A DNA stretch of 64,000 nt, taken from positions 5,631 through 69,630 of the forward strand of contig JACRHV010000003.1 in the NCBI GenBank assembly GCA_016211945.1, written 5' to 3'. Source of the DNA: Minisyncoccota bacterium (lineage in GTDB: Bacteria > Patescibacteriota > Microgenomatia > UBA1400 > UBA12028). The notes under the pieces are model-generated. The model had not been told where the DNA came from and searched no databases. It saw nothing but the letters and a program-made list of their open reading frames with translations. Of the stretch, positions 3,597 through 52,340 are shown piece by piece (the first letter of the stretch is position 1; each line of letters starts with the position of its first letter). The translations under genes and the position numbers were made by a program.

Positions 3597-5282
3597 ATGC
3601 GTTACTTCGTTTGCGTTGTATTTTTTTTCATCTTCTTTTATGCATCATCTCGTCTCCTTGCATTCACCATCGCCTCAGATCCACAGTATCTCGTCATGAA
3701 TTTTTCCGAGATCAATGAACTCAACTGGGCAGCTCCGGAACCACAATGGCAAACAGAAATTAAACCAAAAATACTCGACCAGCTTCACCAACTCCAACGT
3801 ACACTTCCACCCGGAACTTCACAAAGAAAATTGGCGTGGAGTACGCTCCAAGAATATATGAATGTTCCGCTTGACATCCCAAGTGAAACATCGTCGTATG
3901 TCATAAAAATGCGACGTATCCTGGAAATTGCAGAACAAGAAAACCTTCCAGTCTTCCTTCCACTCAACGGTTTTCAATGGTGGGACGAGTTGCCGGAGTT
4001 GTACAACTGGTGGGACCCCGACGGCACTCATACCCCCATAGTTTTCTTTACACGCCAACGTACACCAGACTTTAAAGACCGATTTATCCGCGGCTACAAT
4101 CCGGAAAACAAATGGAATGTTGAGTGGCAGTCACCAACACAACCCATGACGCTTAACTGGCGGAATTGGGGTGGGGGAGGGTTTCGACTTGCACCACCCC
4201 CCAACCTCTTCCCACATTCCCGCACAGCTCTCACCTATAGAAAAGTCCAAAAAGAGCGTTTTATCGCACTTATTACCGAACTTTCAAGCATTATAAACAG
4301 ATGGGAAAAAGAAGGAAGGGGTGATCTTTTTGCAGGTATAACCATTGGCACAGAAGTCTCATTGAACGCCTCCGTCACACCAAAAGACGAGTTTGAGCCG
4401 TACGGATTCCGATCCACACAAGATCTTCTTTGTTCCAAAGACAAACCAACATGCGCCATACCACCGGCACAACTCAGCCAGGCACGACAAAAAATAGTGT
4501 ACCGATATCTTCAAGATCTCGCACGAACCGCCACCCTTCTTGGCATTCCAAAACAGCGCATTTATACACACGTGTGGGGTGAAGTAAAACAGGGCGAGCC
4601 TAAATTTGAGAACTACGCACAGTCCGCATTCAATCCATATGCTCGACCAGGTATGAGTTTTTACGGATATGCAGAAGACCCATTTTCACTTCCCGTATGG
4701 AAAAACGAGATGGAACAACACGGCAATCCATCTTGGGGAGCAGTCGAATACTCCGCAGAAAAAACAGAACGTGTGTGGCAAAAAGGACTCACAAATATCT
4801 TTAACCCACCATCAACACCACCAGCAAAAATCGTCACCATCTATAACTGGACAGAGCACAAAGATACACCCGCGATAAAAGCAATCGCCACCATACTTCA
4901 AGACTATACTCCTCCCACGCAATGTTCTATTCCAGAAATTCTTCCCGAAACACAAAATTATTCCATCACTCAAACATTTTCATGGAATTACTTTCCAACA
5001 GAATCACTCGTACGTTTTTCGCCAACATTAGAATTCATCACAAGTCCCGGTCTTTTCCCAATTCCTCAAGAAAGCAATGTAAAAGAACTCGATGTGTTGA
5101 GCAAAAATACCACGATGTTTGATATAAAACCCGGCGTATATACCATCTCACTCAAGCTCACTGGCTGTGGTGGAAAACGTGTCAGCATATCAGAACCAAG
5201 AACGATCGTGATCCCTGTCCAACTCCCGCAAAATGATACGCCAGCGTGGGTACGATTCATCCTAGAACACAATGCTACGTAG
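3597..5282 (+). CDS. large secreted/membrane-anchored hypothetical protein (561 aa)
   Basis: N-terminal hydrophobic segment (FFFIFFYASSRLLAF); Trp/Pro-rich; no recognisable catalytic motif. Confidence 0.5.
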   Translation: MRYFVCVVFFFIFFYASSRLLAFTIASDPQYLVMNFSEINELNWAAPEPQWQTEIKPKILDQLHQLQRTLPPGTSQRKLAWSTLQEYMNVPLDIPSETSSYVIKMRRILEIAEQENLPVFLPLNGFQWWDELPELYNWWDPDGTHTPIVFFTRQRTPDFKDRFIRGYNPENKWNVEWQSPTQPMTLNWRNWGGGGFRLAPPPNLFPHSRTALTYRKVQKERFIALITELSSIINRWEKEGRGDLFAGITIGTEVSLNASVTPKDEFEPYGFRSTQDLLCSKDKPTCAIPPAQLSQARQKIVYRYLQDLARTATLLGIPKQRIYTHVWGEVKQGEPKFENYAQSAFNPYARPGMSFYGYAEDPFSLPVWKNEMEQHGNPSWGAVEYSAEKTERVWQKGLTNIFNPPSTPPAKIVTIYNWTEHKDTPAIKAIATILQDYTPPTQCSIPEILPETQNYSITQTFSWNYFPTESLVRFSPTLEFITSPGLFPIPQESNVKELDVLSKNTTMFDIKPGVYTISLKLTGCGGKRVSISEPRTIVIPVQLPQNDTPAWVRFILEHNAT

Positions 5283-23508: not shown

Positions 23509-24816
23509 CTATCCTCTCTGTTCCATCCCGTAAAACTTAATGCGATCACCCTTAAAGAACAGGTCTATACTACGTAACGGTCCATTGCGGTGTTTTGCAA
23601 TGGTAAGCTTTACATGCTCCGGCGCCTCGTCTTCTTCTCGATACAAAAACATCACAACGTCCGAGTCCTGCTCTATCGAACCACTCTCGCGTAAATCCGA
23701 CAGTTGTGGCTGTTTTGTTCCTCTGTTTTCTACTCCACGGTTGAGCTGCGACAACGCTAAAACGGGAACCTTCAACTCGCGCGCTAAATTCTTTAGGCCC
23801 TGCGAAATTTCGGACACTTCCTGCACCCGATTGTCTTTTGTGTACCCCTGCATCAACTGTAAATAATCAACCACAATCAAGTCCAATCCATGTTCTGCCA
23901 TCAACCGTCTTGCTTTAGTCCGCACCTCCAAGATAGACTGGCCGGGAGTGTCATCAAAATACAGCGGAGCCTCGGCGAGTACACCCATCGCCTCAGAAAG
24001 TTTTTCAAAATCATCCTCACTAAGCCGCCCTGTTTTCAATCTCCACGCATCAATGTCGGCCTGTTGCACCAAGAGACGATCCACCATTTCCTCGGTGCTC
24101 ATCTCCAGCGCAAAATACCCAACCTTCATCCCTTTCACCACCGCGACATGTTGGGCGATAGAAAGAGAAAATGCCGTTTTTCCAATACCGGGACGCGCCG
24201 CCAACACAATGAGGTTAGACTTCTGCATACCAGCCAAAGTATTGTCCAAATCCAAAAATCCGGTTGAAACTCCGCGCAATCCATCACTGTTTTTGTGGAG
24301 TTCATCAAGTCGATCAAAACTTTCTGACAATGCTTTTTTCAAAGAAACAAATGATCGCCGCATCTGTTTCTGTGATAAGCTGAACACTTGTTTTTCCGTT
24401 TTGTCCAAAATCTGGTCTGTACTTAACCCGGGATCAAACGCCATTTCACCCAACTCTCCTGAGAGTGAGATGAGAGAACGTTTAATCGATAAATCGCGTA
24501 CGATCTTGGCGTATTGAACCACATGGGCAGCTGTAGGAACGCTGGAAGCAAGTTTGGCTAGATATGCAGACCCGCCAATTTCGGTAAACCGCTTCATTTT
24601 CTTCAGTTGATTGGTCAACGTCACCACATCAATGGGCTCGCGCTCATCGAAGAGCTTCAGCATTGCCTCATAAATATCAGCATGCGCGGTTTTATAGAAA
24701 TTGGCTGATTCTAATTTATCCGCAACTTGAACAATCGCTTCTCTATCGAGCAGAATAGCCCCTAAAACGCTTTCTTCTGCTTCAAGATTATGTGGAGGAG
24801 TTTTGAGATCTGCCAT
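23509..24816 (-). CDS. dnaB: replicative DNA helicase
   Basis: 'LEAEESVLGAIL' N-terminus, Walker A 'ARPGIGKTAF', typical DnaB. Confidence 0.9.
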   Translation of the reverse strand: MADLKTPPHNLEAEESVLGAILLDREAIVQVADKLESANFYKTAHADIYEAMLKLFDEREPIDVVTLTNQLKKMKRFTEIGGSAYLAKLASSVPTAAHVVQYAKIVRDLSIKRSLISLSGELGEMAFDPGLSTDQILDKTEKQVFSLSQKQMRRSFVSLKKALSESFDRLDELHKNSDGLRGVSTGFLDLDNTLAGMQKSNLIVLAARPGIGKTAFSLSIAQHVAVVKGMKVGYFALEMSTEEMVDRLLVQQADIDAWRLKTGRLSEDDFEKLSEAMGVLAEAPLYFDDTPGQSILEVRTKARRLMAEHGLDLIVVDYLQLMQGYTKDNRVQEVSEISQGLKNLARELKVPVLALSQLNRGVENRGTKQPQLSDLRESGSIEQDSDVVMFLYREEDEAPEHVKLTIAKHRNGPLRSIDLFFKGDRIKFYGMEQRG

Positions 24817-26849: not shown

Positions 26850-26914
26850 CGTGTTCTTTCTCAGTAATCCAGATGTATTTGCGCATTGTTGACACCCTGT
26901 GATATAGTATCTCC

Positions 26915-27178
26915 CACAAGTAAACTGTATAAAGCGCTAACTGGAGTCACGATCCAGGAGCTGCTCGCCAAAATGCGAGACGGAAGCTTCACCGTAAAAC
27001 CAAGCAGTCGATGTCGCTCAAGCGGAGTCGGCCCAAGAGCTTCTCAGAAAAATGCTGAGAAGAACAAAGGATGGGACCGCGGGAGGTCCTTTTTTATTGC
27101 GCAAATGTTTTGCGCAGGATGCCTCTCGTTCCTTACAGATCACAGTTGCTGTGGTGTGTAGCGAACGGGAGGTTTTTT
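26915..27178 (+). promoter_or_regulatory. T-box riboswitch leader (predicted tRNA-His specific)
   Basis: 27067-27086: helix A1 AAGGA, 7-nt bulge UGGGACC, helix A2 GCGGGAGG, matching the T-box consensus AGGGUGGNACCGCGG. A2/A1 3' strands CCUCUCGU-UCCUU (27122-27134) overlap the 5' arm of terminator CCUCUCGUUCC...GGAACGGGAGG-UUUUUU (27122-27178). Upstream hairpin CUGGA-GUCACGA-UCCAG (26941-26958) carries CAC. Promoter-like TTGCGC/TATAGT at 26879-26908. Confidence 0.7.
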
Positions 27179-27214: not shown

Positions 27215-28732
27215 ATGAACATCCAACTTACAGGAAAAGATTTAACGATTGATCTTGTAAAAAAAGTCGCCAGAGATAGAGAGAAAATTTCTCTTTCTCA
27301 GAAAGCTCGCAAAAATATAGAAAAAGGCCGAGGTATTTTACAAGCTTACGTTGATCGTGGAGAAAAGATTTATGGGGTAACAACCGGGTTTGGAGATTTC
27401 TCTAAGGTTTTCATATCCTCAAATGACGCCGCGCAACTTCAAGTGAATCTTATTCGCAGTCACAATGCAGGTGTTGGCAATCCAGTTCCAGAGGATGTAG
27501 TTCGAGCGACTATGCTTGCTCGTACAAATTACTTGGCTAGTGGAATGTCTGGCTGTCGACCAATAATTGTTGAAACACTCGTTGAAGCCTTAAACAAAAA
27601 CCTCTATCCTTTTATTCCAAGAAAAGGTTCTGTTGGTGCGAGTGGAGATCTTGCTCCTTTGGCTGCAATGGCTGCTTGTCTTATGGGTGAAGGATTTGCC
27701 ATTGTTGATGGGAAAAAAGTGCCTTCATTGCAAGTTCTGCAAGAAAAGAGAATTAAACCAATCAAACTTTCATTCAAAGAGGGACTCTCCCTTATTAATG
27801 GCGATACGCTCATGGTAGGATACGCCACCCTACTGGTATATGACGCAATTCAACTTGCAAAACTCTCAGATATTGCTATCAGCATGACAATCGAGAGTAT
27901 TGTTGGCGTTATGGAGGCTTTCGACGAACGCCTGCAACTCTCTCGAGGTTTTTTTGGTCAAGTTGCTTCTGCCAGAAATATTCGAGCGCTCACTGCTGGA
28001 AGCAAAATACTCTCTGGAGAAAAAAGACGGGTTCAAGATAGCTATGTTATTCGATGTGGTCCGGTTATTTTGGGTGCATCACGCGAAGCAATTTCGTTTG
28101 TTCGGCGTCAAACGGAGATCGAACTTAATGGATCGTGCGACAACCCACTTGTTTTCTTAAAAGATGACGCTGTTTTAGCTGGTGGAAACTTCCACGGCCA
28201 GCCACTCGCTCTTCCGCTCGATTTTCTCAAGATTGCGGTATCGGAATTTGCAAGCTCCTCTGAACGTCGAATGGAACGCATGATTAATAAAACATACTCG
28301 GGAATGCCTCCATTTCTTATTGAAAATGGTGGATTGAATTCCGGTTTTATGGTCCCGCAATATACCGCTGCTGGACTCATTAACTTAAATAAGGGGCTTT
28401 CGTGGCCGAATAGTGTTGATTCAACGCCTCTTTGTGCGGGTCAAGAAGATCACGTTTCCATGGGAACAAATTCTGCACTTACAGCATATGAAGTTGTTCA
28501 AAATACACAGTATGTCTTGGCAATTGAGTTGCTGATTGCTGCGCAAGCATTAGAGTTTTCCGAGAAATCTCCAAGCTTAGTCATACAAAAACTGAAACGG
28601 TTCATTCGAACAAAGATTCCAAAGGTTACACAAGACGTTGCTATGAGTCCACTCATCGAGCAAATGAAGAACTGGATTGCAGACGAATCGTTTGTTCGTA
28701 TGACAGAAAAAAATGTTGGAGTATTGGCATGA
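27215..28732 (+). CDS. hutH: histidine ammonia-lyase family (MIO-dependent) enzyme
   Basis: 'GSVGASGDLAPLA' MIO-forming Ala-Ser-Gly motif; 505 aa; start taken at ATG 27215 after AAAGAGGAAAAAAGAAAGGA. Confidence 0.8.
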   Translation: MNIQLTGKDLTIDLVKKVARDREKISLSQKARKNIEKGRGILQAYVDRGEKIYGVTTGFGDFSKVFISSNDAAQLQVNLIRSHNAGVGNPVPEDVVRATMLARTNYLASGMSGCRPIIVETLVEALNKNLYPFIPRKGSVGASGDLAPLAAMAACLMGEGFAIVDGKKVPSLQVLQEKRIKPIKLSFKEGLSLINGDTLMVGYATLLVYDAIQLAKLSDIAISMTIESIVGVMEAFDERLQLSRGFFGQVASARNIRALTAGSKILSGEKRRVQDSYVIRCGPVILGASREAISFVRRQTEIELNGSCDNPLVFLKDDAVLAGGNFHGQPLALPLDFLKIAVSEFASSSERRMERMINKTYSGMPPFLIENGGLNSGFMVPQYTAAGLINLNKGLSWPNSVDSTPLCAGQEDHVSMGTNSALTAYEVVQNTQYVLAIELLIAAQALEFSEKSPSLVIQKLKRFIRTKIPKVTQDVAMSPLIEQMKNWIADESFVRMTEKNVGVLA

Positions 28733-29769
28733 AAAAATATAAAGTTTTTTGCTATCAGTGTGGAAAAGAATACCAAGATCAATGGTGGTTATGTCCTGCG
28801 TGCGGGGGAAGTTTAGAGGTTGCGTATGCACAAACATTGGATACACCTCAATTCCCCACTAATATATTTATTGAAAGTTTAGGTGAGGGAAATACTCCAC
28901 TTATTCGTCTTTCAATACTTTCAAAAAAATATTTCTGTGACTTATGGGCAAAATGTGAAATGCAAAATCCAACGGGGTCTTTTAAGGATCGTGGATCGGT
29001 TATTGAGATAGCAAAAGCGTTGGAACTTGGTATGTCAGGTATTGTATGTGCTTCGACTGGAAACATGGCAGCTAGTCTTGCTGCCTATGCTACGCGAATT
29101 GGATTACGATGTATTGTCGTTATCCCAGTAAAAACACCAATTTCAAAACTCCAACAAGCAGTTATTTGCGGAGCAGAACTTATAAAAGTTCAGGGAGCGT
29201 ATGATGAATGCGTCAAGGTTGCAAAAAAAATTGCTCAACAAAAAAAATATTTTCTTTGTGGCGACTATCTTCTACGAAGAGAGGGTCAAAAAACACTTGG
29301 ATGGGAGCTCGCAAATTCTTGTTTTGACGCGTTTATTATCCCCGTCGGAAATGGAAATATAGGTCTTGCCGTAGCAAAAGGGATTTCGGAATTTATTAGG
29401 GAAAAAAATCTACCTCAATTTGTTGGTGTTCAATCAACACAAGTCAATCCTCTTGAAAAAGCTTGGGTGACACGCACAGAAATCTTTCCTGTAAAAAATA
29501 GAAATACTATTGCTTCAGCGTGCAATGTGGGAAATCCGCTTGATGGTGCGTTTACACTCGATGTTGTGAAAAAGACACGTGGTTGTTTTGTTGCAGCAAC
29601 AGATAAGGAAATTCTTACTTCACAAGATTTTCTTGCAAAAAATGAGGGTCTCTATGTTGAAGCAACCGCCGCGTCAACTTTGGCTGGATTTATAAAAATA
29701 CGGAAGCAATTTAGAAATAAAAAAGTCGTACTTATTCTGACTGGTTCGGGACTCAAGGAAAGGAAATAA
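28729..29769 (+). CDS. threonine synthase-like PLP-dependent (fold type II) enzyme with N-terminal C4 zinc ribbon
   Basis: 'NPTGSFKDRG' PLP-Lys motif; N-terminal CYQCG...CPACGG; 4-bp overlap with the upstream gene. Confidence 0.7.
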   Translation: MKKYKVFCYQCGKEYQDQWWLCPACGGSLEVAYAQTLDTPQFPTNIFIESLGEGNTPLIRLSILSKKYFCDLWAKCEMQNPTGSFKDRGSVIEIAKALELGMSGIVCASTGNMAASLAAYATRIGLRCIVVIPVKTPISKLQQAVICGAELIKVQGAYDECVKVAKKIAQQKKYFLCGDYLLRREGQKTLGWELANSCFDAFIIPVGNGNIGLAVAKGISEFIREKNLPQFVGVQSTQVNPLEKAWVTRTEIFPVKNRNTIASACNVGNPLDGAFTLDVVKKTRGCFVAATDKEILTSQDFLAKNEGLYVEATAASTLAGFIKIRKQFRNKKVVLILTGSGLKERK

Positions 29770-29774
29770 GACAT

Positions 29775-30155
29775 ATGGAAAGGATTATCGTAGCAAAAGG
29801 GCGTGGAAGTGAGAACTGGCAAAAGGAATTATCGAACGATCCCATAGATCGTATATGGAGATTATTAGCAAGCCTTTGGTGGAAACCAGAAAAACGAGAT
29901 AATTCACCGGAGAATATTGAATTCGTCATTACATCTATTGATGACATTATTCAAGGGTTTTCAGAAAAAACTTTATCAAATAGAAGTGAAATGTCTATTG
30001 CAGAAGCATTGCGAAACGGTTCAAAAGTTGACATCTGTTTTGAGTTTTGTAAAACAGGAGAGAGGTGTGGGAATGTATTTATTAGTACAGGATATGAAAC
30101 TCTTTGCTTAAAATGTTCGGGTGAACGGAGTAATAATAAATGGACATCAGAATGA
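29775..30155 (+). CDS. hypothetical protein with C-terminal Cys-rich segment
   Basis: CFEFCKTGERCGN...CLKCSGE. Confidence 0.4.
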   Translation: MERIIVAKGRGSENWQKELSNDPIDRIWRLLASLWWKPEKRDNSPENIEFVITSIDDIIQGFSEKTLSNRSEMSIAEALRNGSKVDICFEFCKTGERCGNVFISTGYETLCLKCSGERSNNKWTSE

Positions 30156-30343
30156 AAGACATATTCTTATCAGACAGTGAACGAGGAATCGACCGAACAA
30201 AAATAGCGGCAAATGATTGTGGTCGTTTACAAAACGCGCCCATTCGTGGAAAGATTCCTCGTTGGTGGCTAGAAGAAGGTACTACAGAACAAATAAAGGA
30301 ATGGAAAAGACAACTTGAAGCTGGTGAAGCAACTCTAGAGTAA
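30140..30343 (+). CDS. small hypothetical protein (67 aa)
   Basis: ORF track; overlaps the previous gene by 16 nt. Confidence 0.3.
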   Translation: MDIRMKDIFLSDSERGIDRTKIAANDCGRLQNAPIRGKIPRWWLEEGTTEQIKEWKRQLEAGEATLE

Positions 30344-30380: not shown

Positions 30381-31589
30381 ATGTCCAACACCATACCACA
30401 AACACTCAAAGGCTTCCGTGATTTCCTGCCAGAACAAGCAAGAAAACGGCAGTGGCTTCGTGACAAAATTATTGAGGTATTTGAGCTTTGGGGATTCGAC
30501 CCACTTGAAACTCCCACGCTCGAACCGCTGGAGCTTTTTGCTGGTCAAATTGGCGAGGATGAAAAACTCTTTTTCAAGTTCAAGGATTCTGGTGACCGTG
30601 ACGTCGCGTTGCGATATGATCAGACCGTCCCCACCTGCCGAGTGGTTGCGCAGTACTATCAACAACTCACGATGCCGTTCAAGCGGTATCAAATTCAACC
30701 CGCTTTCCGCGCGGAAAAACCGCAAAAAGGTCGGTACCGCGAGTTTGTGCAGTGCGACGCCGATATCTTTGGTGTGGACTCCCCTCTCGCTGACGCGGAG
30801 GTTATCGCACTTGGTTTGGATATCTATCGTCGTCTTGGATTTCCAAAGGCAAAGGTCCTAATCAATGACCGACAACTCCTCAAAGACCTTCCGTACGAGG
30901 CAATTGTCGCAATCGATAAGCTCAAAAAAATCGGCAAAGACGGCGTGATTGAGGAAATGAAAGCAAAAGGAATCGAGGAAAAGACGGCACGCGGCTATCT
31001 CGACACCGTGCTTACGTTGAAGCCAAATGAAACTATTCAAATCATCTTGAATTACCTCAAAAACCAAGGATTCGAGTCTGATTGGTACGAGTTTGATCCC
31101 ACCATTGCGCGCTCATTTTCATACTCATCAGGTCCAATTTGGGAAATTGAGATCCCGGGATTAACTGGTTCGGTTTTGGGAGGTGAACGATTCGATAATC
31201 TTGTAGAAAAAATCGCTGGTTTTCGCGTTGCGGGAACGGGATTTGGACTCGGATTTGATCGTACCTTAGAGGCTGCGGAAGCGTTCAATCTCATTCCCCT
31301 TTCTGCGACAAGCGCACAAGTGTTAGTGACAATTTATTCTCCAGAATATGTGAGTGAAAGCGTAGAAACCACCTTATTTTTGAGGAAAAACGGCGTGCGG
31401 ACTGAGATATATCCAGATGACACGGAAAAACTTGCGAAACAACTGAAGTATGCGAGTAAAAAAGAAATTCCATATGTCATTATTCTCGGTTCTGACGAAA
31501 AAGCACAAAATGTGGTTCAACTCAAAAATATGAAGACTAGCGAACAGAAAAAAATGACAATTGAACAGGTAGTAAAGTTATTTGTGTAA
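30381..31589 (+). CDS. hisS: histidine--tRNA ligase
   Basis: 'LKGFRDFLPE', class II motifs, C-terminal anticodon-binding domain. Confidence 0.9.
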   Translation: MSNTIPQTLKGFRDFLPEQARKRQWLRDKIIEVFELWGFDPLETPTLEPLELFAGQIGEDEKLFFKFKDSGDRDVALRYDQTVPTCRVVAQYYQQLTMPFKRYQIQPAFRAEKPQKGRYREFVQCDADIFGVDSPLADAEVIALGLDIYRRLGFPKAKVLINDRQLLKDLPYEAIVAIDKLKKIGKDGVIEEMKAKGIEEKTARGYLDTVLTLKPNETIQIILNYLKNQGFESDWYEFDPTIARSFSYSSGPIWEIEIPGLTGSVLGGERFDNLVEKIAGFRVAGTGFGLGFDRTLEAAEAFNLIPLSATSAQVLVTIYSPEYVSESVETTLFLRKNGVRTEIYPDDTEKLAKQLKYASKKEIPYVIILGSDEKAQNVVQLKNMKTSEQKKMTIEQVVKLFV

Positions 31590-31685: not shown

Positions 31686-32648
31686 ATGAATCGTCTGCCC
31701 GCAAAAACAGTTATTTTTGGAGTAACGGCCGCACTCATTAATGTATTGTGTTGGGGCGCCGCACCCGCAATTATTAAATTTGGTCTTGAAACTGTATCGC
31801 CGACCGTTTTCCTCTACTATCGATTCGTTCTTGTTATTGCACTCACAACTCCTTTTATGTATGCGTTTCGCAAACACATTGCTTCGTCGGTAAAAACTCC
31901 TCAGCATCTTGTTACATTGCTTTTAATCGGCATCCTCACAAACCCATTAAATCTTGGCATTCTTTTTCTCGGTCTTCATTACACAACGTCTGCGTCTGCG
32001 GCTATACTCGCGAGCGTCTCCCCTCTTTTTATCATGGCAGCCAGTGCACTTTTTTTAAAAGAGCGTATTACAAAGTTCGAGCTGCTTGGTGCTGCAATTG
32101 CAACACTAGGAACCTGCATTATCATCCTTGATACGCCAACACAATCAGGAGCAGCGAACCCTCTCCTTGGCAATCTCCTTATCTTTACCTACAACATCGT
32201 CTGGACCGCAGGAGCGCTGTTGATGAAAAAATACGCAACAACATATCATCCGTTCTTATTTGGATACACGGGATGGTTTACCGGCATGATTCTCTTCGGC
32301 CTCATCGTCATGATCACTGAACCATATTTTTTCTTCCGCCCACTCATGCTTACACAACTTCCACAGGCTTTCTTCTCCATTCTCTACATGGCTGTTTTCG
32401 GCTCTATTATCGGATTTACCTCATATCAAGTTGCACAGAAACATCTTTCTGCTTCGAAGGTAAGTATTTTTACCTACCTTCAACCCATCGTTGTTCTTCC
32501 CCTCTCTGTCTTTTGGTTAAAGGAAAAATTTGGTGTTCAGTTCATTCTTGGGGCGATGATCTTGGCTATCGGCGTATGCATTGCTGAGATGCATCAGCGA
32601 TCGAGATTGCGGACACTTCATCATAAACCACACAAAAAGGCGGCATAA
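31686..32648 (+). CDS. DMT-superfamily (EamA-like) transporter
   Basis: 10 TM helices, duplicated EamA halves. Confidence 0.6.
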   Translation: MNRLPAKTVIFGVTAALINVLCWGAAPAIIKFGLETVSPTVFLYYRFVLVIALTTPFMYAFRKHIASSVKTPQHLVTLLLIGILTNPLNLGILFLGLHYTTSASAAILASVSPLFIMAASALFLKERITKFELLGAAIATLGTCIIILDTPTQSGAANPLLGNLLIFTYNIVWTAGALLMKKYATTYHPFLFGYTGWFTGMILFGLIVMITEPYFFFRPLMLTQLPQAFFSILYMAVFGSIIGFTSYQVAQKHLSASKVSIFTYLQPIVVLPLSVFWLKEKFGVQFILGAMILAIGVCIAEMHQRSRLRTLHHKPHKKAA

Positions 32649-32672
32649 GTAACGCCGCCCTTCTGTTTTAAA
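32636..32672. terminator. bidirectional rho-independent terminator between convergent genes
   Basis: GGCGGC-ATAAGTAAC-GCCGCC flanked by A5 on one side and CTTCTGTTTT on the other; the stop of the + strand gene lies in the loop. Confidence 0.6.
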
Positions 32673-42692: not shown

Positions 42693-44120
42693 TCAAGTTT
42701 TTTTCTTTACGATATATCCAGCTTCGTTGTCTGTTACAACCCAACCATTGTCTTCGATTTTTTTTCGCAACAGATCTGCGATTGTAAAATCTTTTGTTTG
42801 TTTTGCTTGCCACCGTTGTGTCGCCAATTTTGCAATATCCTGTGGCACAGGAACTTTTTTTTCGTTGCCATTGCTTTGAGATACGGCCCCCGCAATTCCC
42901 AGACCCAATACCTCATCAAACTCACAGAGAAGGTCGTATTTATCTTTCGATGGAATATTACTTTTCGTCATTTCCCACAGAACTGCAACCGCCTCCGGCG
43001 TGTGGAGGTCATGTTCTATTGCAGTGAAAAATCGGGATCGATATTCCTCGATTTTTTCCAGTTTCTCCCCTGAAAGCTCCGTTCTTCCCTCCTCTTTCTT
43101 CCATCCGCTCGCCATCTGGACCAATCGATCCCCTGCTGTTTGAGACGCCGCCAACGTATCCCAAGTAAAATTGAGTTCATCACGATAATGTGCGCTCAAG
43201 TACAGTAATCGTAAAGCCATTGGTGAAAACCCCTTCTGTATGACATCGTCAATCGTGTAAAAGTTATTGAGCGATTTGCTCATTTTTTCACCATCAACTC
43301 GAAGAAAATTGTGGTGTACCCAGTATTTCACAAACGGCTTTTTTCCCGTGGCCGCCTCGCTTTGCGCGATTTCATTGGTGTGGTGAACCGGAATATGGTC
43401 AATGCCTCCCGTGTGCACATCAAATTGATCTCCAAGATACTTCATGCTCATTGCAGAACACTCGATGTGCCATCCGGGAAATCCTTTTCCCCAAGGCGAA
43501 TCCCATTCCATTTGTCTTTTTTCATTTTTTGATGAAAATTTCCATAACGCAAAATCTGTTGGGTGTTTTTTGCCATGGACCATCTCTACACGTGCTCCTG
43601 CTTTGAGTTTTTCAATATCCAGTTTCGCCAGCTGTCCGTACTCCGGAAATTTTGACGTGTCAAAGTAGAGACCATCATCAAGAATGTAAGTAAATCCACG
43701 CTTCTCTAATGTTTGAATAAGCATGATTTGTTCTGCAATGTGATCTGTCGCGCGACATGAAATGTCCGGTCTACTCACACCGACTGCATCAAGTCCTTTC
43801 CAAAAAAATGATTCAAACTCTTTCGCTATATCCCATACAGACTTTCCGTATTTCCGCGCCCCTTTCTCCATCTTGTCTTCGCCTTCGTCGGCATCGGAAA
43901 CGAGGTGGCCAACATCGGTGATATTCATGACATGTGTCACGGTCAATCCCGAATGTCTCAGAACACGGATGAGGACATCGTCCATGATGTATTTGCGTAG
44001 GTGACCAAGGTGAGCGTAATCGTAAACCGTGGGACCGCATGCGTACAAACCAATGTTGTTTCCAGCATGAAGTGGGACAACTTCCTCAACTGACCGCGTA
44101 AATGTGTTGTAGATTTTCAT
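42693..44120 (-). CDS. cysS: cysteine--tRNA ligase
   Basis: 'CGPTVYDYAHLGHLR' (HIGH), 'KMSKSLNN' (KMSKS). Confidence 0.9.
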   Translation of the reverse strand: MKIYNTFTRSVEEVVPLHAGNNIGLYACGPTVYDYAHLGHLRKYIMDDVLIRVLRHSGLTVTHVMNITDVGHLVSDADEGEDKMEKGARKYGKSVWDIAKEFESFFWKGLDAVGVSRPDISCRATDHIAEQIMLIQTLEKRGFTYILDDGLYFDTSKFPEYGQLAKLDIEKLKAGARVEMVHGKKHPTDFALWKFSSKNEKRQMEWDSPWGKGFPGWHIECSAMSMKYLGDQFDVHTGGIDHIPVHHTNEIAQSEAATGKKPFVKYWVHHNFLRVDGEKMSKSLNNFYTIDDVIQKGFSPMALRLLYLSAHYRDELNFTWDTLAASQTAGDRLVQMASGWKKEEGRTELSGEKLEKIEEYRSRFFTAIEHDLHTPEAVAVLWEMTKSNIPSKDKYDLLCEFDEVLGLGIAGAVSQSNGNEKKVPVPQDIAKLATQRWQAKQTKDFTIADLLRKKIEDNGWVVTDNEAGYIVKKKT

Positions 44121-52052: not shown

Positions 52053-52340
52053 GCTTCCTCCTTTTTTATACAAAAAACCGCCCATGCATAACTCAGAACA
52101 TTTGCTCTGAATCATGCACAGGCGGTCATCCTTGCGATCTTTCGCGGATGAACGCGGTACCACTGCGCTTTGATCTCTTTGCTCTATATCGGGAGCCCCC
52201 GAACGGGTTCCGCTGTTACGCTGTGCCCGTCACCGACCTTTTCAGGAGTAAGGACCGGATTTCCTTACCTTTCGGTTGAGATAGAGTATAGCATACGGGG
52301 CAACTATCATTCTCCAGGCTTACTTTCAAGGCTTGTCTTC
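52053..52340 (-). promoter_or_regulatory. T-box riboswitch leader (predicted tRNA-Pro specific)
   Basis: minus strand AGUGGUACCGCG (52154-52165) matches the T-box core. Helix A1 GCGCAG/CUGUGC, bulge UGGUACC, helix A2 GCGUUCAUCC/GGAUGACCGC. Overlapping 14-bp terminator CCGCCUGUGCAUGA...UUAUGCAUGGGCGG followed by U6 (52072-52125). Candidate specifier CCU in an internal loop. Confidence 0.75.

What the first reader, a model, noticed from the sequence alone, without database searches (positions are those of the whole stretch)
26915..27178. T-box riboswitch (tRNA-His type) upstream of a hutH-like / thrC-like / hisS operon
Seen directly: promoter-like TTGCGC/TATAGT, then a structured leader of about 260 nt. 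Positions 27067-27086 read AAGGA-UGGGACC-GCGGGAGG, i.e. helix A1, the 7-nt bulge UGGNACC and the start of helix A2, close to the T-box consensus AGGGUGGNACCGCGG. The 3' partners CCUCUCGU and UCCUU (27122-27134) complete the antiterminator. They are also the 5' arm of a strong terminator, CCUCUCGUUCC...GGAACGGGAGG followed by U6 at 27173-27178. This is the canonical mutually exclusive antiterminator/terminator pair. The variable N in UGGN is G, which pairs with discriminator C73, the state of bacterial tRNA-His. The last gene of the operon is hisS. A 5' hairpin, CUGGA-GUCACGA-UCCAG, presents CAC (a His codon) followed by a purine in its loop, reminiscent of the ultrashort stem-I T-boxes of Actinobacteria. 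T-boxes are best known in Firmicutes, so finding them in what looks like a reduced CPR-like genome is notable.
Basis: partly seen in the sequence, partly recalled or inferred. Interest (0 to 1): 0.8.

Follow-up and report, generated by a model that had tools for sequence, protein, structure and literature searches.

The report
Miniature T-box riboswitch in CPR bacterium

Summary
The sequence features are at the stated coordinates. The leader (about 26915-27178) is a real T-box-type attenuator. Rfam's T-box model matches at only 34 bits (cutoff 93; E = 5e-6 locally). The core is complete: A1 / UGGGACC bulge / A2, whose 3' strand is also the 5' arm of a -33.5 kcal/mol terminator plus U6. A sister lineage (L002) keeps the leader core 90% identical against about 56% at near-neutral sites, with four compensatory pairs. 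A second leader of the same design precedes proS in this window. It is conserved in four lineages and covaries in both antiterminator and terminator, yet Rfam misses it. The design combines an ultrashort stem I and an insertion in helix A2, known from translational actinobacterial T-boxes, with an intrinsic terminator. The host is a CPR bacterium. His specificity is probable (about 0.6) and rests on context: hisS in the operon, a tRNA-His gene (G-1, C73) inside the sister's operon, and His-codon leader-peptide attenuators before the orthologous hutH-thrC operons of at least 15 relatives. The canonical codon slot reads ACG (Thr), CAC is a -1 frame, and N = G is rare in known His T-boxes.

The parts
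26879..26908 (+). Promoter: -35 TTGCGC (26879-84), 18-nt spacer, extended -10 TGaTATAGT (26900-08). The likely transcription start is near 26915.
   Evidence: Read directly. L002 has a different sequence but a TTGGCA / TGgTACAAT promoter at the same distance from stem I. It was not listed by the simple consensus scan.
26934..26963 (+). Stem I, ultrashort. It has a basal helix with a degenerate K-turn-like internal loop, an upper helix CUGGA/UCCAG (26941-45 / 26953-57) and a 7-nt apical specifier loop GUCACGA (26946-52). CAC is at 26948-50 and ACG at 26949-51.
   Evidence: Rfam aligns it to stem I, with 75 model positions replaced by 6 nt. One double-sided compensatory change (U-A to C-G) and one G-C to G-U change relative to L002; the loop is invariant.
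26964..26979 (+). Stem II, reduced to a 5-bp hairpin CUCGC-CAAAAU-GCGAG. No recognisable S-turn.
   Evidence: Rfam alignment with 10 model positions deleted; predicted in the MFE fold; invariant in L002.
26980..27005 (+). Stem IIA (ACGG/CCGU) with an F-box-like CCGUAA. Candidate IIB pseudoknot between loop GCUU (26986-89) and AAGC (27002-05).
   Evidence: Rfam alignment to the IIA/F-box positions. All pairs are possible and invariant. The pseudoknot is inferred, not tested.
27007..27032 (+). Extra hairpin not present in the Rfam consensus (treated as an insertion).
   Evidence: MFE fold. Stem invariant; tetraloop UCAA becomes CCAG in L002.
27040..27062 (+). Stem III: CUUCUCAG-AAAAAUG-CUGAGAAG.
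   Evidence: Rfam alignment. Three double-sided compensatory pairs relative to L002 (CUUUUCGA/UCGAAAAG).
27067..27086 (+). T-box core: A1 5' strand AAGGA, 7-nt bulge UGGGACC (UGGG would pair with the 3'-CCCA of a C73 tRNA), A2 5' strand GCGGGAGG.
   Evidence: Identical in L002, L168 and L169.
27073..27095 (+). Local hairpin T1 (GGGACC-GCGGGA-GGUCCU) plus U6. It sequesters the bulge and is terminator-like. Role unknown; possibly an early checkpoint or pause.
   Evidence: Terminator scan. -9.7 to -11.5 kcal/mol, and the MFE of transcripts ending at 27095-27121. 100% conserved, U tract included, up to 27099, after which the two lineages diverge completely.
27097..27117 (+). Hairpin inserted in the apical loop of helix A2.
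   Evidence: L002 has an unrelated sequence here that also forms a hairpin. The Pro leaders carry an analogous insertion, absent in L174.
27122..27134 (+). Shared strand: A2 3' strand CCUCUCGU plus A1 3' strand UCCUU. It is also the 5' arm of terminator T2.
   Evidence: All 13 antiterminator pairs are standard. Invariant in L002.
27121..27178 (+). Intrinsic terminator T2 (-33.5 kcal/mol) and U6 (27173-78).
   Evidence: Stem arms are conserved and the interior is variable in L002. Full-length terminator form -66.2 versus enforced antiterminator -49.8 kcal/mol.
27215..28732 (+). hutH, histidine ammonia-lyase (505 aa), preceded by SD AAAGGAA at 27205-11, which is not sequestered by the terminator.
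   Evidence: TIGR01225 564.9 bits (cutoff 539). Best PDB hits are HALs, and the ASG MIO triad is present.
28729..29769 (+). Threonine-synthase-family PLP enzyme with an N-terminal CxxC...CxxC zinc ribbon (346 aa).
   Evidence: TIGR00260 172.1 bits (cutoff 167.1); PF00291. Best PDB hits are threonine synthases, E = 4e-53. Always paired with hutH in relatives.
29775..30343 (+). Two small ORFs of unknown function: 126 aa (29775-30155, Cys-rich C terminus) and 67 aa (30140-30343).
   Evidence: No family hits. The 126-aa ORF is kept in L001 and L169.
30381..31589 (+). hisS, histidyl-tRNA synthetase (402 aa).
   Evidence: TIGR00442 345.4 bits (cutoff 286.75). No terminator between hutH and hisS.
31686..32666 (+). 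EamA-family transporter (31686-32648) and the terminator at the end of the operon (about 32632-32666).

Best explanation
The leader is a T-box-type riboswitch that controls read-through into hutH - thrC-like - orf126 - orf67 - hisS - eamA by transcription attenuation.

By default the nascent RNA first folds the T-box sequence into a local hairpin. It then forms the strong terminator T2 (27121-27173 plus U6), and transcription stops before hutH.

An uncharged tRNA docks its anticodon on the 7-nt apical loop of a very short stem I. It is probably helped by the small stem II / IIA-B module rather than by an elbow-binding platform, which is absent. The tRNA pairs its free 3'-NCCA with UGGG of the bulge. 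This stabilises the antiterminator (A1 27067-71 with 27130-34; A2 27079-86 with 27122-29), which consumes the 5' arm of T2, so the polymerase reads through. A charged tRNA cannot stack its 3' end there, and T2 wins.

The effector is most likely tRNA-His(GUG) reading CAC (26948-50).

What is shown: the sequence elements, the alternative pairings and their energies, conservation with compensatory changes, and a covarying paralogous switch in the same genome. What is inferred: tRNA binding, the identity of the tRNA, and the role of stem II / IIA-B.
For: T-box identity:
- RF00230 matches end to end (model 1-219) at 34.2 bits, E = 5e-6, in the window and 37.3 bits, E = 9e-7, in L002.
- The A1 / UGGGACC / A2 geometry, with contiguous 3' partners that are also the terminator 5' arm, was found at only 3 sites in 1.57 Mb and 0 in shuffles.
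- Terminator form -66.2 versus antiterminator -49.8 kcal/mol. A2 forms spontaneously once 27122-34 are transcribed.
- The leader core is 90.1% identical to L002, against 56% at hutH third codon positions and in the promoter flank.
- 52 of 52 proposed pairs are kept in both sequences, with 4 double-sided compensatory changes and 0 in the slid controls.
- The Pro leader of the same design is conserved in 4 lineages. Shared-strand column 227 covaries with both its A1 partner (column 171) and its terminator partner (column 256), and the distal A2 pairs covary.

His specificity:
- hisS lies in the operon with no intervening terminator.
- L002, L168 and L169 carry a tRNA-His(GUG) gene with G-1 and C73 between the T-box terminator and hutH.
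- At least 15 related CPR loci have, at the same position before hutH-thrC, a leader ORF with His-codon runs and a 1:2 / 2:3 / 3:4 attenuator. The orthologous operon is therefore switched on by low His-tRNA charging.
- UGGG can pair with C73-C-C-A.
Against: - The Rfam score is far below the gathering cutoff (34 versus 93), and stem I, stem II and the K-turn are degenerate.
- Only two independent sequences of this leader exist. The antiterminator, terminator arms and specifier loop are invariant between them, so those parts have conservation but no covariation.
- Against His: the canonical codon-purine-helix slot reads ACG-A (Thr), the same register as CCG-G in the Pro leaders. Gene 2 is most similar to genuine threonine synthases.
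- N = G is rare among known His T-boxes, and C73 of tRNA-His is normally paired with G-1.
- The window organism's own tRNA-His and tRNA-Thr were not available.
- Reviews state that transcriptional T-boxes generally need a long stem I with the elbow-binding module for fast tRNA capture. Function of such a short stem I in a terminator-type switch is unproven.
Confidence: 0.6

Rival explanations
1. The same T-box mechanism, but the effector is tRNA-Thr(CGU) reading ACG (26949-51) followed by the conserved purine A26952. The biologically relevant target would be the threonine-synthase-like gene.
For: ACG-A sits immediately before the 3' strand of stem I, which is the canonical specifier position. 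It is the same register as CCG-G in the four Pro leaders, whose hairpin shares the GGA...UCC closing stem. TBDB gives the '+0' frame priority. Gene 2 passes the thrC equivalog cutoff, and its best solved homologues are threonine synthases.
Against: The first gene is hutH and the aaRS in the operon is hisS, not thrS. The orthologous hutH-thrC operons of at least 15 relatives respond to His codons, not Thr codons. The sister lineage inserted a tRNA-His gene into this operon. UGGG would need C73, or a G-U wobble with U73; from general knowledge, bacterial tRNA-Thr usually has A73. This could not be checked for this lineage.
Confidence: 0.13
2. A two-codon T-box. The overlapping CAC and ACG in the loop (CACG) would let either uncharged tRNA-His or uncharged tRNA-Thr switch on an operon that contains both His-related (hutH, hisS) and Thr-related (thrC-like) genes.
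For: Both codons are present and invariant in the two lineages, and each is followed by a purine. The operon mixes His- and Thr-family genes. A two-codon T-box binding two tRNAs (Asn and Glu) has been demonstrated in Clostridium acetobutylicum (Saad et al. 2013, as summarised in PMC4052509).
Against: There is no direct evidence. A single UGGN must suit both discriminators. Relatives regulate hutH-thrC by His alone. Any 7-nt loop contains overlapping triplets.
Confidence: 0.12
3. Not a tRNA sensor. It would be a structured 5' leader with an ordinary, constitutive or protein-controlled terminator, and its resemblance to the T-box core would be fortuitous or vestigial.
For: The Rfam score is below gathering. 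The stem I platform, S-turn and canonical K-turn are absent. There is a weak alternative hit to bglG-cis-reg (E = 0.13).
Against: An end-to-end T-box alignment is reproduced in two lineages. The exact UGGNACC bulge geometry was not seen in shuffles. There is strong purifying selection and compensatory changes. A second switch of the same design lies before proS, with covariation in both states and a matching Pro codon and UGGU. No conserved leader ORF exists: no SD, and +1 / -1 indels relative to L002.
Confidence: 0.08

Closest known systems
Class I (transcriptional) T-box leaders of Firmicutes, Rfam RF00230, e.g. B. subtilis tyrS / glyQS and the hisS and his-operon T-boxes
   Same: The T-box core (A1, UGGNACC bulge, A2), stem III, an F-box-like CCGUAA and a mutually exclusive intrinsic terminator with a U tract. 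Control of an aaRS-containing operon. ON when tRNA is uncharged.
   Different: Stem I is cut from about 90 nt to a 5-bp helix with a 7-nt loop. There is no specifier internal loop with S-turn, no AG bulge or distal loop (the elbow-binding IDTM), and a degenerate K-turn. Stem II is 5 bp without an S-turn. Helix A2 has a 35-nt insertion. It scores 34 of the 93 bits required. N = G, whereas known His T-boxes mostly have A. The first regulated gene is hutH, which I found in no T-box regulon description.
Class II (translational) ileS T-boxes of Actinobacteria with intermediate or 'ultrashort' stem I (Sherwood et al. 2015; Mycobacterium / Nocardia ileS structures)
   Same: Short stem I lacking the IDTM. 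Reliance on a stem II / IIA-B module. Insertions in the discriminator domain 'especially in Helix A2', as the review describes for this class.
   Different: Those act by sequestering the Shine-Dalgarno sequence. Here the alternative helix is a -33.5 kcal/mol hairpin plus U6 that ends 27 nt upstream of a free SD, so the output is termination. Stem II here lacks the S-turn that is essential in ileS. The host is CPR, not Actinobacteria; TBDB searched for class II only in Actinobacteria.
hisL-type leader-peptide attenuators
   Same: The same regulatory signal (low His-tRNA charging), the same output (terminator read-through) and the same position before hutH-thrC in the relatives L004-L008, L010, L082, L083, L085-87, L090, L122 and L162-165.
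   Different: Those need translation of a His-codon ORF. The window's leader has no such ORF and instead has the T-box core. The two are analogous, not homologous.
Two-codon T-box of Clostridium acetobutylicum (Saad et al. 2013)
   Same: Overlapping triplets in the specifier loop that match two amino acids relevant to the operon.
   Different: That case is experimentally shown (Asn/Glu). Here the CAC/ACG overlap is only a possibility.

Membership tests
T-box leader (RF00230) | Conserved T-box sequence forming a 7-nt bulge UGGNACC between helices A1 and A2 of an antiterminator | tested here: met
   AAGGA / UGGGACC / GCGGGAGG pair with CCUCUCGU / UCCUU; all 13 pairs are standard. The geometry is unique in 1.57 Mb, with 0 hits in shuffles.
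T-box leader (RF00230) | Mutually exclusive terminator (or sequestrator) that shares a strand with the antiterminator | tested here: met
   27122-27134 is both the A2/A1 3' strand and the T2 5' arm. -66.2 versus -49.8 kcal/mol. Both arms are conserved in L002. The sister Pro leader shows covariation of the shared strand with both partners.
T-box leader (RF00230) | Score at or above the curated gathering threshold of the covariance model | tested here: not met
   34.2 bits (window) and 37.3 bits (L002) against 93; E = 5e-6 and 9e-7 in roughly 500-nt searches. The Pro leader gives no hit at E <= 1.
T-box leader (RF00230) | [quoted passage not shown] | tested here: inconclusive
   The canonical slot reads ACG-A (Thr). 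CAC-G-A (His) is a -1 frame. Gene context favours His. The thrC-like gene leaves Thr open.
T-box leader (RF00230) | Long stem I with K-turn, specifier S-turn, AG bulge and distal loop (tRNA-elbow platform) | tested here: not met
   75 model positions are replaced by 6 nt. The K-turn positions read UAA instead of UGA.
T-box leader (RF00230) | Stem III preceding the antiterminator | tested here: met
   8-bp helix 27040-27062 with 3 compensatory pairs.
T-box leader (RF00230) | Binding of cognate uncharged tRNA and tRNA-dependent antitermination | not testable with these tools
   Needs in-vitro transcription or binding assays.
Class II 'ultrashort stem I' T-box (Actinobacteria ileS type) | Short stem I without IDTM, plus stem II with S-turn and the IIA/B pseudoknot | tested here: inconclusive
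   Short stem I: yes. A IIA hairpin with F-box-like CCGUAA and a possible 4-bp IIB: yes, but invariant. Stem II is only 5 bp, with no AGUA/GAA S-turn.
Class II 'ultrashort stem I' T-box (Actinobacteria ileS type) | Output by sequestration of the Shine-Dalgarno sequence (translational control) | tested here: not met
   The SD at 27205-11 lies 27 nt downstream of the U6 tract and outside any alternative helix. The alternative helix is a canonical intrinsic terminator.
His-specific T-box | Cognate tRNA-His present with an acceptor end able to pair with UGGN | tested here: inconclusive
   The sister lineage's tRNA-His has C73, complementary to N = G. However, C73 faces G-1, known His T-boxes mostly use N = A, and the window organism's own tRNA-His was not available.

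The most novel reading that the evidence does not exclude
The conserved HutH + threonine-synthase-like pair of Microgenomates-group CPR bacteria is not a histidine-catabolic module. Instead it is part of a pathway the cell needs when histidine is scarce, such as an unrecognised histidine-supplying or histidine-sparing route. The reason is that two unrelated RNA sensors of uncharged tRNA-His, leader-peptide attenuators in most lineages and this miniature T-box in the window's lineage, both switch it ON under His starvation. In different lineages the pair is also linked to hisS, a tRNA-His gene or hisG.
Probability: 0.25. Interest if true: 0.8.

Novelty: new variant of a known kind. Interest (0 to 1): 0.6.

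Why it matters
First, current reviews hold that terminator-type T-boxes need a long stem I with the tRNA-elbow platform to capture tRNA fast enough, and that ultrashort stem I belongs to slower translational switches. Two independent leaders in one CPR genome combine an ultrashort stem I with a strong intrinsic terminator, and one of them has covariation in both states. They offer a natural minimal transcriptional T-box of about 250 nt for testing that rule.

Second, I found no paper in the searched library that links T-boxes to CPR / Patescibacteria. The Rfam model scores these leaders at 34 bits or not at all, so routine annotation would miss such elements in these very large, poorly understood lineages.

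Third, the regulated operon starts with a histidine-degrading enzyme that is induced by histidine starvation. This is corroborated by His leader peptides in at least 15 relatives, and it points to an unrecognised role for HutH and its ThrC-like partner in organisms thought to lack amino-acid biosynthesis.

Tried and rejected
- Rfam at the gathering threshold on the whole window found only a tRNA.
- Other T-box-core-like 12-mers in the window (18 matches with up to 2 mismatches): all but 27070 and 52153 are inside coding sequence or lack the geometry.
- Compact antiterminator as aligned by Rfam (A1 AAGG/CCUU around a 2-bp A2, 27066-27092): rejected. A2 would be only 2 bp, no competing terminator overlaps it, and the local MFE is the T1 hairpin instead.
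- More copies of the His leader: the genome and metagenome scans and five contig look-ups yielded only the window type and the L002 type. L168 and L169 are identical to L002, and L001 and L166-167 are cut off.
- Loop-loop duplex energies to choose between tRNA-His and tRNA-Thr: non-discriminating. The same calculation prefers tRNA-Ser over tRNA-Pro for the Pro leader.
- Search for tRNA-Thr and tRNA-Pro genes in 32 CPR loci to read their discriminators: none present.
- No thrS in the window; cysS has no leader.
- A relaxed scan for variant cores in 429 kb of CPR sequence found nothing credible.
- A leader peptide in the window's leader: no SD, no His run, and indels relative to L002.
- The 126-aa ORFs in the His and Pro operons are not paralogues (E = 1.3).
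- bglG-cis-reg and microRNA Rfam hits: E of 0.13 or higher, dismissed.
- Sherwood 2015 and 2018 could not be read because they are not held.
Full report
**1. Observation.**
- The promoter is TTGCGC (26879-84), an 18-nt spacer, then TATAGT (26903-08) with an upstream TG.
- The 5' hairpin is CUGGA-GUCACGA-UCCAG (26941-57).
- The T-box core is AAGGA-UGGGACC-GCGGGAGG (27067-86), with partners CCUCUCGU-UCCUU (27122-34).
- U6 lies at 27173-78.

The only correction concerns the terminator 3' arm, which reads CGAACGGGAGG. The basal stem is therefore 10 bp plus a G-U, continued by inner helices; the hairpin alone folds at -33.5 kcal/mol. The 271-nt leader folds far better than shuffles (z = -5.3).

I wrote a geometric scan requiring A1 (5 bp), UGGNACC, A2 (at least 7 of 8 bp), contiguous 3' partners and a downstream U run. 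It found three sites in 1.57 Mb on both strands and none in five shuffles. The sites are this leader, its orthologue in L002 and a second leader in the window.

Rfam RF00230 gives no hit at the gathering threshold. On the 461-nt region it gives a full-length alignment (model 1-219) at 34.2 bits, E = 5e-6, against a cutoff of 93. The orthologue in L002 gives 37.3 bits, E = 9e-7.

The alignment shows why the score is low:
- Seventy-five stem I positions are replaced by 6 nt.
- Stem II loses its S-turn region.
- An extra hairpin (27007-32) is treated as an insertion.
- The model closes the antiterminator on the nearby UCCUUUU instead of the true partner 35 nt further on.

The elements that do align are the stem I base, stem II, stem IIA with an F-box-like CCGUAA, stem III and the T-box sequence.

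**3. Two-state switch.** The full-length minimum-energy fold is the terminator form (-66.2 kcal/mol), and the enforced antiterminator is -49.8. A transcript ending at 27134-27161 spontaneously forms helix A2. Before that point (ends at 27095-27121) the T-box sequence sits in a local hairpin, GGGACC-GCGGGA-GGUCCU (-9.7 kcal/mol), followed by U6.

This is the energetic ordering expected of a T-box: a weaker antiterminator that needs stabilisation by the tRNA 3' end. The SD (27205-11) is not part of any alternative helix, so the output is termination, not translation.

**4. Organism and relatives.** The window's HutH is MBI5150988.1 from a Candidatus Pacebacteria MAG on a 137-kb contig, so the host is CPR, in the Microgenomates group. 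The downstream genes are:
- hutH (above the equivalog cutoff);
- a threonine-synthase-family PLP enzyme with a zinc ribbon;
- two small ORFs;
- hisS;
- an EamA transporter.

No terminator lies between hutH and the one after eamA.

Scans of genome and metagenome collections and contig look-ups gave one independent orthologue of the leader: the L002 type, at 91% HutH identity. L168 and L169 are the same population.

Between the two lineages the leader core is 90.1% identical. Third codon positions of hutH and the promoter flank are about 56% identical. All 52 proposed pairs are kept, with four double-sided compensatory changes (one in stem I, three in stem III) and none in the slid controls. The A2 insertion and the terminator interior are replaced by unrelated sequences that still form hairpins. 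The specifier loop, the T-box core, the shared strand and the terminator arms are invariant. They are conserved but give no covariation signal.

**5. A second switch of the same design.** On the minus strand (about 52290-52072) lies another leader. It precedes a CsaA/Trbp111-like tRNA-binding protein and proS. Its parts are:
- a short stem I hairpin, GGUAAGGA-AAUCCGG-UCCUUACU;
- the core GCGCAG-UGGUACC-GCGUUCAUCC;
- a small hairpin inserted in A2;
- the partners GGAUGACCGC-CUGUGC, overlapping a 23-bp terminator plus U6.

Rfam finds nothing here even at E <= 1. Orthologues exist in three further lineages (L170, L171-173, L174).

Their alignment shows covariation in stem I, in A1 and in distal A2 (CC/GG, CU/AG, UC/GA, UU/AA). 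Shared-strand column 227 (C to U in L174) is compensated in both its A1 partner (column 171, G to A) and its terminator partner (column 256, G to A). That is direct comparative evidence that both conformations are selected. The loop keeps CCG-G directly before the helix, and N = U suits A73 of tRNA-Pro (the latter from general knowledge). The organism therefore uses T-boxes of a small, terminator-type design.

**6.

First, the codon. In canonical T-boxes the codon is followed by one purine and then the helix. The Pro leaders obey this rule (CCG-G-helix), and their hairpin shares the GGA...UCC closing stem with the present one. In the same register GUCACGA reads ACG-A, which is Thr. CAC-G-A is a -1 frame. 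TBDB's annotation does accept that frame, but only when other criteria demand it.

Second, the discriminator. In the cmsearch alignments of 157 Firmicutes His T-boxes, the strings UGGAACC, UGGUACC, UGGCACC and UGGGACC occur 128, 177 (about 157 of these are consensus lines), 10 and 9 times. TBDB does not use discriminator matching for His because C73 is paired with G-1. N = G is therefore compatible with tRNA-His but not diagnostic of it.

Third, gene 2 most resembles bona fide threonine synthases.

In favour of His is the gene context:
- hisS is in this operon in both T-box lineages, and was absent from the operon in the attenuator lineages I could check (L162-164).
- In L002, L168 and L169 a tRNA-His(GUG) gene (Rfam tRNA 50.1 bits; G-1; C73) lies between the T-box terminator and hutH.
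- In at least 15 related CPR loci the same hutH-thrC pair is preceded by a short ORF with His-codon runs (HHHH, HHYH, HHH, HHPH, HHAH, HHTH, HLH, HH). Its codons pair with a segment 2 that alternatively pairs with segment 3 of a 3:4 terminator, and the stop codon sits right after segment 2. This is the classical hisL logic, ON at low His-tRNA.

The orthologous operon is thus a His-starvation operon. The simplest reading is that this lineage replaced one His-tRNA sensor with another.

I could not obtain tRNA-Thr or the window organism's tRNA-His. Loop-loop duplex energies were not discriminating. My estimates are His about 0.6, Thr about 0.13, and a two-codon CAC/ACG switch about 0.12 (precedent: the Asn/Glu two-codon T-box). 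I put about 0.08 on its not being a tRNA sensor; the remaining share, roughly 0.07, covers possibilities I have not named.

**7. Comparison with known classes.**
- With class I T-boxes it shares the core, stem III and the terminator output.
- With class II (actinobacterial, translational) it shares the ultrashort stem I without the elbow-binding module and the insertion in helix A2. [quoted passage not shown]
- It fails the Rfam cutoff, lacks the S-turn of stem II and has a degenerate K-turn.

It therefore works like a T-box and belongs to the T-box superfamily in its core. It is neither a standard class I nor a class II member, and I classify it as a new variant of a known kind.

The 2008 census found T-boxes in Firmicutes, Actinobacteria, Chloroflexi, Deinococcus-Thermus and two Proteobacteria. 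TBDB searched for class II only in Actinobacteria. Three full-text searches combining T-box with 'Candidate Phyla Radiation' or 'Patescibacteria' returned no paper. That is absence from this library, not proof of novelty.

**8. Unexplained.**
- A histidine ammonia-lyase with an intact MIO triad that is induced by histidine starvation is paradoxical. Its constant partner is a ThrC-like enzyme, and the pair is variously linked to hisS, tRNA-His, hisG (L163) and an upstream TrpR/HisR-family gene.
- The T1 hairpin with its U tract is 100% conserved up to 27099, exactly where the two lineages start to diverge. It may be an early terminator or pause that tRNA binding to UGGG would also defeat.
- The L002 tRNA-His has C33 instead of the near-universal U33, and an A3-C70 mismatch, reproduced in three assemblies. 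C33 would extend the pairing with the loop to CACG, which is suggestive but untested.

**9. Verdict.** The T-box interpretation is well supported. Interest is moderate to high (0.6): a miniature terminator-type T-box class in CPR that standard models miss, controlling an operon whose regulation contradicts its annotated catabolic function.

Noticed in passing
window 52290-52072, minus strand: A second T-box of the same small design lies upstream of a CsaA/Trbp111-like tRNA-binding protein (52052-51711) and proS (51707-50451). Stem I hairpin 52269-52247 has loop AAUCCGG (CCG-G). Core GCGCAG-UGGUACC-GCGUUCAUCC is at 52168-52146, the partners at 52131-52116, and the terminator plus U6 ends at 52072. 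It is conserved in L170, L171-173 and L174, with covariation in both antiterminator and terminator. There is no Rfam hit at E <= 1.
   Followed up: yes
L004-L008, L010, L082, L083, L085-L087, L090, L122, L162-L165 (100-250 nt upstream of hutH): His-codon leader ORFs (e.g. MNHHHHVNSGVI, MLITDVQNQVSHHHHATSGVI) with 1:2 / 2:3 / 3:4 attenuator structures precede hutH-thrC-like in related CPR genomes. This is hisL-type attenuation in CPR, controlling a histidine ammonia-lyase.
   Followed up: partly
L002 5887-5960 (also L168 5889-5961, L169 1209-1281): A tRNA-His(GUG) gene sits inside the T-box-controlled unit, between the terminator and hutH. It has G-1 and C73, but also C33 instead of U33 (anticodon loop CCGUGGA) and an A3-C70 mismatch. 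C33 is complementary to the G that follows CAC in the T-box loop.
   Followed up: partly
window 27073-27095: The T-box bulge sequence itself forms a 6-bp hairpin followed by U6 (terminator-like, -9.7 kcal/mol). The whole block, U tract included, is identical in the sister lineage up to 27099, whereas the sequence immediately after it is unrelated.
   Followed up: partly
window 27215-29769; L162, L163, L164, L166, L169: hutH is always followed by a threonine-synthase-family PLP enzyme (with a zinc ribbon in the window's copy), and the pair is under His-starvation control. In L163 it is followed by hisG. HutH of this type is widespread in Microgenomates (Roizman-, Levy-, Gottesman-, Pacebacteria). 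The function of the pair is unclear.
   Followed up: partly
L162 4415-4717, L163 5578-5907, L165 554-853: A TrpR-family (PF01371) gene lies directly upstream of the hutH leader in several relatives. HisR repressors of Firmicutes belong to this family (PMC9413887). In L163 the His codons (EEHHTHIPPARA*) are at the C-terminal end of this gene rather than in a separate leader ORF.
   Followed up: no
window 42693-44120, minus strand: cysS has only a 24-nt gap to the upstream gene and no leader, so not every aaRS gene of this organism has a T-box.
   Followed up: partly
window 3597-5282 (+) and 4391-4472 (-): A 561-aa mechanical ORF overlaps a tRNA-Gln(UUG) gene on the opposite strand, so the long ORF is probably not a gene throughout.
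   Followed up: no
L168 867-3132: In the sister lineage the DnaB gene upstream of the locus carries an intein with a LAGLIDADG endonuclease. The window's DnaB (23509-24816, 435 aa) shows no intein domains.
   Followed up: no
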